A DNA stretch of 64,000 bases, taken from a virus. The position numbers were made by a program, and so were the translations under genes. The DNA lies in the IMG/VR virus record IMGVR_UViG_3300034684_000299, positions 32,001-96,000 of that record; one strand, 5' to 3'. Each line of letters starts with the position of its first letter. The first letter of the stretch is position 1. Below the pieces are notes generated by a model. That model did no database searches. It was given only the letters and a program-made list of their open reading frames with translations, and had not been told where the DNA came from. Shown here piece by piece: positions 62,315 through 64,000 of this stretch.

Positions 62315-62860
62315 ATGCAGATAGTATTTTTAAGCAATTTGAATTTTGATGAGACAATTACTTTTAGTGATCTATATTCAAAAATAGCTTTTATAGAGAC
62401 TCAAAATGATGACATTGAATCTCCTGATGTACCAATTATAAGGACCAACGATTTCGCTTTATTTAAAATTTCAGATACCGATGTAACCGAAGGTGAGGTT
62501 ATTTACAATCATACTTCTAAAAACTCTGATTTCTTCAGTGAAATGTGGAAGACTTTAATAACCAAGAAGAATATACCAGAATTTATGCGTGAAGTTATAA
62601 AGAATGTTATGGAGCATTATGACCCCAAAATTATCCCTGAAGAAATTATAATCAAAACTCAAACTTTTCCCGCAAATTTTATGAAAGTAAAATTAAATAT
62701 TCCAGAATCCTTATCATCGAATGATATACCCGCATTCTTCACAAGATATCTAGATAAAGATTATAAATTTGCTGCAATTAATAATGTATTCCTACTAAAT
62801 AATGCTTCTTTCGAACAACTAAAAATAGAAGATATTCCAGATTATATAAAGGAAGAATGA
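62315..62860 (+). CDS. Hypothetical protein
   Basis: ORF track; SD AGGAGGG. Confidence 0.65.
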   Translation: MQIVFLSNLNFDETITFSDLYSKIAFIETQNDDIESPDVPIIRTNDFALFKISDTDVTEGEVIYNHTSKNSDFFSEMWKTLITKKNIPEFMREVIKNVMEHYDPKIIPEEIIIKTQTFPANFMKVKLNIPESLSSNDIPAFFTRYLDKDYKFAAINNVFLLNNASFEQLKIEDIPDYIKEE

Positions 62861-63627
62861 CTATGCCTCAAGATACAATTAAAATCCCTAATAGGTTTAT
62901 AAACGTTCGAGATGAAGTTCTCGAACGCTTTCCTTTTTTTATGAAGTTAATAAAAAAAACCATTGAATCTAATAAAAATGTTTTCGATGATAAGAAATTA
63001 ATATATCTTATATTGATGAACAATATTGTGTATAGAGGTCTTGATCCTAATACGTGTATAACTTTTCTATTTTCTAAAGATGAAACAACTAAAAAATTAA
63101 AGTATCAAACAAATGGACCTGAATATCATTTTTATCCATACTCTTATTTTTGGAAAGCTTCTATTCCTTATTTAGTAGAGCAAGAAGATGAAGATGATGT
63201 TTATTATTTTTTTGAAAGACTTAATGAAAGAACTAAACATCTATACAACCCTTTAAACAAAAAAATAAGAACTATTTTTCTAAAATCCAGATTAGTGAAA
63301 TTTATTGATGAATTGAGAGATATATATGGTAAAATAATTGAAGAAGAAATAATCGATCATTTGGATGATTTTATTCCCAAAATAGATTTTATAGATAGAA
63401 ATACGTTTTACAATGTTCCTAGCTTTGGAGGTTTTAGTGTTGATTATTTTCTGCAAATAGAAAGAAAAATAAAAAATATCATTGAAAATACCCACATTTT
63501 CGACATTTCAAATAAAAACAAACTAATAGAAAAACTCATAAAGATTTCTGCTAATACTCAATCCAAAATTTCTGATTCTTTAGTCGATATTCCTGAAAAG
63601 TATATAATAGATCTAGCAAAACTTTGA
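62857..63627 (+). CDS. Hypothetical protein
   Basis: ORF track; ATGA overlap. Confidence 0.6.
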   Translation: MTMPQDTIKIPNRFINVRDEVLERFPFFMKLIKKTIESNKNVFDDKKLIYLILMNNIVYRGLDPNTCITFLFSKDETTKKLKYQTNGPEYHFYPYSYFWKASIPYLVEQEDEDDVYYFFERLNERTKHLYNPLNKKIRTIFLKSRLVKFIDELRDIYGKIIEEEIIDHLDDFIPKIDFIDRNTFYNVPSFGGFSVDYFLQIERKIKNIIENTHIFDISNKNKLIEKLIKISANTQSKISDSLVDIPEKYIIDLAKL

Positions 63628-63728
63628 TAAAACCCCCTGCTATTTTTATGAAAATTCAGCGAGAACACTCTCCAATTTATTGGAGAGATGAAAGCTGAAA
63701 ATACAAGGCGAATTTAAGGCAAAAATCG

Positions 63729-63757
63729 TTGTTAATTACTTACGAATGTGATATAAT
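63729..63757 (+). promoter_or_regulatory. Sigma70-type promoter TTGTTA-17-TATAAT (extended TG) driving a non-coding unit
   Basis: Consensus match with no ORF or SD downstream. Confidence 0.65.
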
Positions 63758-63763
63758 TGTATT

Positions 63764-63920
63764 GCAGTTAGTTCCTGCTTAAAAGAACTCTACCCCAGGA
63801 ACTGGGGGATGTTAAGCCTTTGGAGACTGTGTAAGACGGGCATTCATTGTCGCAACGGTCGATGAATTAGGAAGCTTACCTCTTTAGAGGTAAGTAGTTC
63901 ACGTATTCTGGGGCAAAACG
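63764..63920 (+). ncRNA. Orphan TnpB-type omega/reRNA-like RNA (IS200/IS605 right-end scaffold plus downstream putative guide)
   Basis: ccccag-gaa-ctgggg hairpin, AAGCCTTTGGAG, GTCGATGAA..AGGAAGC, perfect cttacctc-ttta-gaggtaag hairpin and GTAGTTCAC end (63902), as seen at tnpB 3' ends; no tnpB ORF upstream. Confidence 0.65.
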
Positions 63921-63945
63921 AGCTCATCGCTTTGCCCTTTTTTTT
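63911..63945 (+). terminator. Intrinsic terminator closing the ncRNA unit
   Basis: gggcaaa / tttgccc stem followed by a T8 run. Confidence 0.75.
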
Positions 63946-64000
63946 ACTCATTTTTTGGAATTAGAACAAATGCTGTAAAAGGTAACCCAAAGTTATAAAC

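What the first reader, a model, noticed from the sequence alone, without database searches (positions are those of the whole stretch)
63729..63945. Stand-alone TnpB-type guide-RNA gene with its own promoter and terminator
Seen: a consensus promoter (63729-63757), about 140 nt with the hairpins and GTAGTTCAC end of an IS200/IS605 tnpB right end, then GTATTCTGGGGCAAAA and an intrinsic terminator. No tnpA, tnpB or other ORF lies between the upstream stop (63627) and the scaffold. Established: TnpB ribonucleoproteins use the right-end RNA as scaffold and the flank as guide, and trans-acting omega RNAs and domesticated TnpB derivatives are known. Inference: the phage keeps this as an expressed cassette that could program a TnpB/TldR-like protein encoded elsewhere by phage or host, or decoy a host TnpB. 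Caveat: the terminator stem starts only 8 nt into the putative guide.
Basis: partly seen in the sequence, partly recalled or inferred. Interest (0 to 1): 0.8.

Follow-up and report, generated by a model that had tools for sequence, protein, structure and literature searches.

The report
Gene-less TnpB guide-RNA mini-transposon in phage
The "stand-alone guide-RNA gene" is real, but it is a 253-base protein-less miniature of the phage's own TnpB jumping gene that landed recently in front of a resident terminator, a kind of element already described and so fairly ordinary.

Summary
A near-consensus extended -10 promoter (63729-63757) precedes a 141-nt structured RNA ending in GTAGTTCAC (63762-63902), followed by GTATTCTGGGGCAAAA and a terminator hairpin.

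The whole 253-bp unit (63650-63902) is a gene-less IS200/IS605 mini-element of the PATE type.

- A second copy, 99% identical, lies elsewhere in the same 185-kb phage.
- The RNA part is 97% identical to the right end of a tnpB-only element in the same phage. That element's TnpB keeps its RuvC residues.
- A tnpA-tnpB element is also present.

The terminator is not its own. Related phages carry the exact empty site, TTTAT|GTATTCTGGGGCAAAA followed by the same terminator. The "guide" is therefore just flanking DNA, and it matches the uninserted allele 16 of 16 next to the required motif.

Most likely it works as in the Geobacillus ISGst model (same TTTAT and TTCAC motifs). The phage's TnpB, supplied in trans, would cut genomes that lack the insertion, so that recombination restores or spreads it.

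Expression and cleavage are untested. PATE-like elements encoding omega RNAs are published, and this scan has met the same kind in other genomes. It is a new member of a known kind.

The parts
62857..63627 (+). Upstream gene (256 aa, no known family). The insertion lies between its stop codon and its terminator.
   Evidence: ORF list. The same gene in relatives is followed directly by the terminator.
63645..63649 (+). TTTAT transposon-adjacent motif (TAM). This is flanking DNA, not part of the element.
   Evidence: Three of the four left-end copies in the genome abut TTTAT and one abuts ATTAT. The empty site in relatives reads TTTAT|GTATTC. ISGst2 TnpB2 has the same TAM.
63650..63697 (+). Left end (LE) of the mini-element, with a subterminal DNA hairpin CTCTCCAAT/ATTGGAGAG.
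   Evidence: 94-96% identical to the left end of the tnpB-only element (genome 151572-151619) and to a third left end at genome 131631-131683. DNA fold z = -4.9.
63698..63761 (+). 64-nt linker specific to the mini-element. It carries the promoter: -35 at 63729-63734, TG at 63749-63750, -10 at 63752-63757.
   Evidence: Present in both mini copies (98% identical) and nowhere else in the genome. Promoter scan gives 10 of 12 with TG. The pattern is rare in the genome. Its first 19 nt resemble the tnpB ribosome-binding region of the parent element (weak).
63762..63902 (+). Right end (RE), which is the complete TnpB omega-RNA scaffold (141 nt), ending in the TTCAC transposon-end motif.
   Evidence: 97% identical to the RE overlapping the 3' end of tnpB at genome 152863-153003, and 80% identical to the RE of the tnpA-tnpB element. 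Covariation is shown. The covariance model lands at tnpB 3' ends in other viral contigs. There is a weak RAGATH-18 match at 63817-63873.
63903..63918 (+). Guide segment of the primary transcript. It is the 3' flanking DNA, GTATTCTGGGGCAAAA.
   Evidence: The four elements diverge exactly after TTCAC. The same 16 nt follow TTTAT in the empty-site relatives. No other TAM-flanked match exists in the phage genome.
63910..63945 (+). Resident intrinsic terminator of the upstream gene: hairpin 63910-63938 and T-run 63938-63945. It is reused as the 3' end of the omega-RNA transcript.
   Evidence: RNAfold. It is present unchanged in relatives that lack the element. The convergent minus-strand gene stops at 63944-63946.

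Best explanation
Window 63650-63902 is a 253-bp non-autonomous, protein-less IS200/IS605-family mini-element of the PATE type. It derives from the phage's own tnpB-only insertion sequence.

It keeps three things:
- the left end;
- a 64-nt linker with a strong extended -10 promoter;
- the right end, which is a full TnpB omega-RNA scaffold.

It inserted precisely 3' of a TTTAT motif, between the stop codon of a phage gene and that gene's terminator.

Inferred transcription: it starts at about 63764, or arrives by read-through from the upstream gene. The product would be scaffold plus flank, ended by the resident terminator.

Inferred function: the nuclease-competent TnpB encoded 56 kb away in the same phage binds this RNA in trans. 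It then cuts any copy of the phage genome that has TTTAT directly followed by GTATTCTGGGGCAAAA. That sequence occurs in the vacated donor site after TnpA excision and in a co-infecting relative that lacks the insertion. Recombination with an element-bearing genome would then restore or spread the element.

Shown here: anatomy, homology, copy number, the precise empty site, and the presence of TnpB and TnpA genes.

Inferred only: promoter activity, RNA loading, cleavage, and mobilisation by the single TnpA.
For: - Two 99% identical copies have unrelated flanks.
- The left end is 94% and the right end 97% identical to the ends of the tnpB-only element at genome 151572-153003. That element's right end overlaps the last 21 nt of tnpB, stop codon included.
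- The TnpB (387 aa) matches ISDra2 TnpB at E = 6e-64. The residues aligned to D191, E278 and D361 are conserved.
- A Y1 TnpA (Pfam 127.8 bits) lies in a tnpA-tnpB element whose right end is 80% identical and also ends in TTCAC.
- Relatives with 99.2% and 96.2% identical flanks carry the exact empty site ...TTTAT|GTATTCTGGGGCAAAAC plus the terminator.
- Contigs in three runs from oil-field samples join across the element.
- The RNA structure shows covariation: 8 of 38 pairs within the genome. Over 23 distinct homologues, 89% of cells are paired against 61% in shuffles, and 36 of 38 pairs change on both sides.
- All 31 covariance-model hits in 60 unrelated viral TnpB loci lie on the tnpB strand, and 29 of them lie at or just past the 3' end of tnpB.
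- The TAM TTTAT and end motif TTCAC equal those of ISGst2 TnpB2. PATE elements encoding omega RNAs that act with TnpB in trans are described in the same paper (PMC10055086).
- The promoter is conserved in both copies, and the pattern is rare in the genome.
- Copy 2 is antisense to its neighbouring genes, so only an internal promoter could express it.
Against: - There is no transcript evidence. The RNA library laid on the region (X11) carried only the empty-site allele there.
- Nine of the 16 guide nucleotides (63910-63918) sit in the 5' arm of the terminator hairpin. This could hinder target pairing unless the 3' end is trimmed.
- The only tnpA in the genome belongs to an element with a different left-end hairpin sequence, so cross-mobilisation is unproven.
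- Rfam gives no hit above threshold: RAGATH-18 scores 21 bits against a cut-off of 44.9.
- The origin of the 64-nt promoter linker is unresolved.
Confidence: 0.8

Rival explanations
1. Inert passenger. The unit is a genuine mini-IS, but its RNA does nothing. The promoter-like site would be fortuitous or weak, and the guide would be locked in the terminator hairpin. The element would persist only because it is recent and neutral in an intergenic spacer.
For: There is no expression data. The guide overlaps the terminator stem. The insertion is very recent: flanks are 99.2% identical to an empty-site relative, so selection has had little time to act.
Against: The scaffold is complete, with no disabling changes relative to the parent (97% identity, all helices kept). 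The promoter sits so that transcription would start within a few bases of the scaffold's 5' boundary. It is kept in both copies, and the pattern is about 7 times enriched in this genome over expectation.
Confidence: 0.15
2. Domesticated guide cassette. The phage would keep the RNA to program a TnpB or TldR-like protein against a target other than its own empty site, such as a host gene or a rival element, or to act as a decoy for a host TnpB.
For: It has its own promoter and a trans-encoded TnpB. Domesticated TnpB derivatives exist (bioRxiv 10.1101/2023.11.30.569447, listed).
Against: - The guide equals the flank and matches the uninserted allele 16 of 16 beside the TAM, so no other target is needed to explain it.
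- The unit keeps intact transposon ends and is polymorphic among near-identical phages.
- The TnpB has an intact RuvC triad, unlike TldR.
- No second TAM-flanked match to any of the four guides exists in the phage genome.
Confidence: 0.04
3. Decaying scar of a full-length element left by internal deletion in situ, and therefore not mobile.
For: The start of the linker weakly resembles the tnpB ribosome-binding region of the parent (19 nt with 1 mismatch and 1 gap). This is consistent with an origin by internal deletions.
Against: The same deletion derivative sits at two unrelated loci at 99% identity. Relatives have a seamless empty site rather than a full-length element there. The linker-bearing unit is also found in another study's metagenome in which the main phage contig has this site empty (X5 contig spanning L001 1524-1652).
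Confidence: 0.01

Closest known systems
PATE-like minimal IS200/IS605 elements that encode omega RNAs, and the ISGst2 (TnpB2) family of Geobacillus stearothermophilus (Meers et al. 2023; preprint PMC10055086)
   Same: It is protein-less and bounded by a left end and a right end homologous to tnpB-bearing elements in the same genome. The right end is the omega-RNA scaffold, and TnpB and TnpA would have to act in trans. The TAM is identical (TTTAT) and so is the transposon-end motif (TTCAC).
   Different: - It sits in a 185-kb environmental phage rather than a bacterial chromosome.
- It carries a dedicated near-consensus extended -10 promoter in a linker not found in the parent.
- Only two copies exist.
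- The phage TnpB was not compared with any ISGst TnpB. Its best match in the phage collection, Parabacteroides phage PF672P2, is 46% identical, and Geobacillus virus E3 is 44%.
ISDra2 TnpB-omega RNA ribonucleoprotein (PDB 8EXA, 8BF8, 8H1J)
   Same: The TnpB has the same domain order and catalytic residues (E = 6e-64). The RNA comes from the right end and overlaps the end of tnpB. The guide is the 3' flank.
   Different: The TAM is TTTAT rather than TTGAT. Here the RNA is separated from the gene and given its own promoter.
RAGATH-18-derived reRNAs of IS607 TnpBs (Ren et al. 2024, PMC11061315; Rfam RF03064)
   Same: They share a core motif, CCUuuGGAG...CGAUGAAuuAGGAA, which is the weak Rfam match at 63817-63873.
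   Different: The score is 21 bits against a gathering score of 44.9. The partner transposase here is a Y1 TnpA (IS605 type), not the IS607 serine recombinase.
Homing endonuclease genes of T-even phages (marker exclusion)
   Same: The predicted consequence is the same: a co-infecting relative lacking the insertion is cut at the empty site and converted by recombination. This is my inference from established knowledge.
   Different: Specificity would come from an RNA guide plus a trans-encoded nuclease, not from a protein encoded in the insertion. It is untested here.

Membership tests
IS200/IS605 non-autonomous mini-element (PATE-like) | Left and right ends homologous to those of a full-length element, each with a subterminal hairpin | tested here: met
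   The left end is 94% and the right end 97% identical to the tnpB-only element. DNA hairpin z-scores are -4.9 (LE) and -3.8 (RE).
IS200/IS605 non-autonomous mini-element (PATE-like) | Insertion 3' of a fixed short motif with no target-site duplication, and a seamless empty site in relatives | tested here: met
   TTTAT|element|GTATTC here. TTTAT|GTATTC in L076-L080. A joint across the element in three runs.
IS200/IS605 non-autonomous mini-element (PATE-like) | No protein-coding gene inside | tested here: met
   No ORF of 30 aa or more on the plus strand within 63650-63902. The only one nearby is a 35-aa minus-strand ORF that spills into the flank.
IS200/IS605 non-autonomous mini-element (PATE-like) | More than one copy at unrelated sites | tested here: met
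   A second copy lies at genome 116531-116783 (minus strand), 99% identical and with different flanks.
IS200/IS605 non-autonomous mini-element (PATE-like) | A Y1 TnpA that recognises these ends and can move the element | tested here: inconclusive
   One intact-looking tnpA is present (Pfam Y1_Tnp 127.8 bits). Its own element has a different left-end hairpin sequence. Activity on the mini-element cannot be tested with these tools.
TnpB omega RNA (reRNA) | In parent elements the RNA is encoded at or overlapping the 3' end of tnpB and ends at the transposon right boundary | tested here: met
   The parent scaffold spans genome 152863-153003 and tnpB ends at 152883. All 31 model hits in viral TnpB loci are on the tnpB strand and 29 of them lie at or just past the tnpB 3' end.
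TnpB omega RNA (reRNA) | Conserved secondary structure supported by covariation | tested here: met
   8 of 38 compensatory pairs among 4 copies. In 23 distinct homologues 89% of cells are paired against 61% shuffled and 35-43% slid, and 36 of 38 pairs change on both sides (that alignment was fitted to the model).
TnpB omega RNA (reRNA) | Match to a curated covariance model of an omega/reRNA family | tested here: not met
   Only a sub-threshold RAGATH-18 hit: 21 bits, cut-off 44.9, E = 1.8. That model was built on IS607-type RNAs. No IS605 TnpB omega-RNA family gave a match.
TnpB omega RNA (reRNA) | The guide is the 3' flank and pairs with a TAM-flanked target | tested here: met
   The empty allele in relatives is TTTAT plus a 16 of 16 match.
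TnpB omega RNA (reRNA) | The RNA is made, binds TnpB and directs DNA cleavage | not testable with these tools
   The RNA library laid (X11) carries only the empty-site allele at this locus.
TldR / domesticated nuclease-dead TnpB guide system | Partner protein with an inactivated RuvC site, and a guide conserved independently of transposon ends | tested here: not met
   The D-E-D triad is conserved in the phage TnpB aligned to ISDra2. The unit keeps mobile ends and its guide is merely the flank.

The most novel reading that the evidence does not exclude
The mini-element could be an RNA-only gene-drive cassette in a phage population. Together with the phage's TnpB it would cut co-infecting relatives that carry the TTTAT+GTATTCTGGGGCAAAA empty allele. 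That would be RNA-guided marker exclusion, or homing.

On this reading, the third allele seen in oil-field phages is a natural drive-resistant and insertion-proof variant. There the 6 nt TTTTAT are replaced by ACCTTGT, which destroys the TAM while the 16-nt target stays intact.
Probability: 0.15. Interest if true: 0.6.

Novelty: new member of a known kind. Interest (0 to 1): 0.3.

Why it matters
It adds a clean natural example of how OMEGA guide RNAs uncouple from their nuclease genes. Three alleles are all visible in public metagenomes of one phage lineage: occupied, empty and cleavable, and empty with the motif ablated. That makes the homing and retention model of TnpB directly testable in a virus, where co-infection supplies the recombination partner.

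As a kind of element it is already described, so it does not change current understanding.

Tried and rejected
- blastn of the region against 50,697 phage records found no match.
- Exact-pattern scans of viral contigs with a 27-nt scaffold core and with the 32-nt promoter segment found nothing.
- A protein-pattern search of viral contigs with the upstream 256-aa gene found nothing. Relatives were reached instead through the protein cluster and contig look-ups.
- The Rfam search gave only sub-threshold hits.
- RNA evidence: the RNA library laid (X11) holds a contig with the empty-site allele spanning both convergent genes, so it says nothing about expression of the element.
- Empty site for copy 2: in relatives the whole surrounding segment of about 1 kb is missing, so no clean junction could be read.
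- One DNA fold (L009:1375-1440) was aimed at the wrong stretch and is disregarded.
- The origin of the 64-nt linker is unresolved: there is no other copy in the genome, only a weak 19-nt resemblance to the parent's tnpB ribosome-binding region.

Full report
**What is there.** The window is bases 32001-96000 of a 185,437-bp virus record with 31% G+C. At 63729-63757 there is a promoter-like site: TTGTTA, 17 nt, TATAAT, with TG two bases upstream of the -10. From 63762 to 63902 runs a 141-nt segment ending in GTAGTTCAC. It is followed by GTATTCTGGGGCAAAA (63903-63918), a bulged G+C-rich hairpin (63910-63938) and eight T (63938-63945). No ORF of 30 aa or more lies between the upstream stop (63627) and the scaffold.

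A self-search of the genome found the following.
- A second copy lies at genome 116528-116787 on the minus strand. It is 99% identical over 260 bases that begin well upstream of the promoter.
- The last 141 bases match the region just after a tnpB gene at genome 152863-153003 at 97%.
- The same bases match the region after another tnpB at 108644-108760 at 80%.
- The first 53 bases of the repeat match the sequence just upstream of the first tnpB (151567-151619) at 94%, and one more place (131631-131683) at 96%.

Aligning the copies fixes the boundaries. All left copies share GAAAATTCAGCGAG... and are preceded by TTTAT (three copies) or ATTAT (one copy). All right copies end in GTAGTTCAC and diverge immediately afterwards.

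In window coordinates the unit is laid out as follows.
- TAM: TTTAT, 63645-63649.
- Left end: 63650-63697.
- Linker: 64 nt, 63698-63761, with the promoter.
- Right end, which is the scaffold: 63762-63902.

The whole is 253 bp with no gene. Both ends carry DNA hairpins.

**Partners in the same phage.**
- Genome 151720-152883 encodes a 387-aa TnpB with HTH_OrfB, OrfB_IS605 and Cas12f1-like_TNB domains. It aligns with ISDra2 TnpB at E = 6e-64, and the residues aligned to D191, E278 and D361 are kept. Its right end overlaps the last 21 nt of the gene, stop codon included.
- Genome 107052-108640 holds a Y1 tnpA (127.8 bits) followed by a second tnpB. That element's left-end hairpin differs in sequence from the one on the mini-element. 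Whether this TnpA moves the mini-element is therefore open.
- A covariance model of the scaffold finds exactly these four copies in the genome.

**Is the RNA a TnpB omega RNA?**
- Within the genome, 8 of 38 predicted pairs change on both sides between the two right-end families.
- A model built from the four copies was run over 60 viral contigs that encode TnpB relatives of at most 49% identity.
- It gave 31 hits, all on the tnpB strand, and 29 of them lie at or just past the 3' end of the tnpB match.
- On those hits (23 distinct sequences) 89% of cells pair, against 61% in shuffles and 35-43% when partners are slid. In 36 of 38 pairs both sides change. That alignment was fitted to the model.
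- Rfam gives only a sub-threshold hit to RAGATH-18 at 63817-63873: 21 bits against a cut-off of 44.9. RAGATH-18 has been shown to be the core of the guide RNA of IS607 TnpBs (PMC11061315). The weak hit points the right way but does not pass as membership.

**The terminator and the guide belong to the flank.** The upstream 256-aa protein belongs to a cluster of nine near-identical proteins from public assemblies. Contigs encoding them show three alleles at this site.
- Five contigs (L076-L080) read ...CTGCTATTTTTAT|GTATTCTGGGGCAAAACGAGCTC... followed by the same hairpin and T-run. This is a seamless empty site.
- Six contigs from oil-field runs (L070-L075, one of them cut short just before the guide sequence) read ...CTGCTAT-ACCTTGT-GTATTCTGGGG.... 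They are empty too, but with ACCTTGT in place of TTTTAT, so the motif reads CTTGT.
- Laying contigs of four public runs on the locus found the second form independently in three runs. It appears as a joint that skips 259 bases with ACCTTGT between.

Flank identity to the window's phage is 99.2% for L078-L080, 96.3% for L070-L075 and 96.2% for L076/L077, and 93.5% between the latter two groups. TTTTAT occurs in both the nearest and a distant lineage, so it is the older state. The insertion is recent, and ACCTTGT is derived. The convergent minus-strand gene ends at 63944-63946.

The cassette therefore did not bring a terminator. It landed between a gene's stop codon and that gene's terminator.

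**How it most likely works.** The TAM (TTTAT) and end motif (TTCAC) are the same as those reported for ISGst2 and TnpB2 of Geobacillus stearothermophilus. [quoted passage not shown] The authors also note PATE-like elements that encode omega RNAs and must be served in trans by TnpB from other elements (PMC10055086).

By analogy, the RNA made from the mini-element would load onto the phage's TnpB. It would direct cleavage of TTTAT+GTATTCTGGGGCAAAA. That sequence exists only where the element is missing: the donor joint after excision, or a co-infecting relative of the L078 type. Recombination with an occupied genome would then restore or spread the element.

In the occupied genome the guide's own match is preceded by TTCAC rather than the TAM. 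No other TAM-flanked match to any of the four guides exists in the phage.

**The promoter.**
- It is conserved in both copies.
- The pattern TTGNNN-N14/15-TGNTATAAT occurs nine times on both strands of the genome, two of them in the mini copies. About 1.2 are expected from base composition (my arithmetic).
- The predicted start lies within a few bases of the point where homology to the parent scaffold begins.
- Copy 2 lies antisense to its neighbours, so it could only be expressed from within.

None of the mechanism has been observed. The RNA library laid on the region carries only the empty-site allele at this locus.

**Weak points.**
- Nine of the 16 guide bases are in the terminator's 5' arm.
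- The TnpA-to-left-end match is unproven.
- The origin of the 64-nt linker is unknown, apart from a 19-nt resemblance to the parent's tnpB ribosome-binding region.

**Comparison and novelty.** This is the published kind: PATE-like minimal IS200/IS605 elements carrying omega RNAs. Earlier notes of this scan describe the same kind in other phages and in archaea, and other OMEGA elements in this very genome. These include a mini-element that joins the same left end (genome 131631-131683) to an IscB-type RNA; I saw its left end and its GGTAGTTGAC terminus. A further protein-less left-end-plus-scaffold unit turned up in an unrelated viral contig (L050 about 1170-1357).

What is particular here is the clean set of three alleles in public data, and a well-placed promoter. 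I file it as a new member of a known kind, of modest interest.

**Most novel reading not excluded.** The TAM-ablated allele could be a resistance allele against RNA-guided homing in a phage population. I give that about 15%.

Noticed in passing
window 63644-63649, versus L070:3268-3300 and the equivalent stretch in L071-L075: In one phage lineage (flanks 96.3% identical) the empty site has ACCTTGT in place of TTTTAT. That is a length change plus four substitutions confined to the TAM, while the 16-nt guide target is unchanged. The site would be neither insertable nor cleavable there. In run X5, which carries this allele, the mini-element's linker is still present elsewhere at about twice the phage depth.
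   Followed up: partly
L002:1241-2253 (genome 116268-117280): The second mini-element copy sits inside a segment of about 1 kb that relatives lack altogether. The segment also holds a 71-aa ORF, a 133-aa ORF with no cluster mates, and a duplicated 30-nt piece of the upstream terminator region. In relatives the flanking gene is followed directly by an AcrIII-1-like gene (PF08960).
   Followed up: partly
L050:1170-1357 (IMGVR_UViG_3300037067_027641): An unrelated viral contig has a protein-less unit about 190 bp long. It consists of TTGAT, a hairpin-bearing left end, a short AT-rich linker and an omega-RNA-like scaffold. This was the best covariance-model hit (56.5 bits). It lies 1.6 kb upstream of that contig's own tnpB and shares a 66-nt core with that tnpB's right end at 91%.
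   Followed up: partly
genome 131250-131683 minus strand (outside the window): A third copy of the same left end (96% identical, TAM TTTAT) is joined to a different, longer structured RNA ending in GGTAGTTGAC, with no gene. TnpB-type and IscB-type cargo would then share one left-end family.
   Followed up: partly
window 63698-63718 versus genome 151700-151719: The first 19 nt of the promoter linker (AATACAAGGCGAATTTAAG) resemble the ribosome-binding region just before the parent tnpB start (AATA-AAGGAGAATTTAAG). This hints that the mini-element arose by internal deletions from a full-length relative.
   Followed up: no
window 63817-63873: There is a sub-threshold Rfam match to RAGATH-18 (21 bits). 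That motif is now known as the core of IS607 TnpB guide RNAs. It suggests a shared k-turn/E-loop core between the IS605-type and IS607-type scaffolds.
   Followed up: partly
genome 109549, 156637 and 157895 (minus strand); window 14232 and 26000 (genome 46232, 58000; plus strand): A small set of near-consensus extended -10 promoters (TTGACA...TGnTATAAT) is scattered through the phage. They are far more frequent than base composition predicts and may mark host-polymerase (early) transcription units.
   Followed up: no
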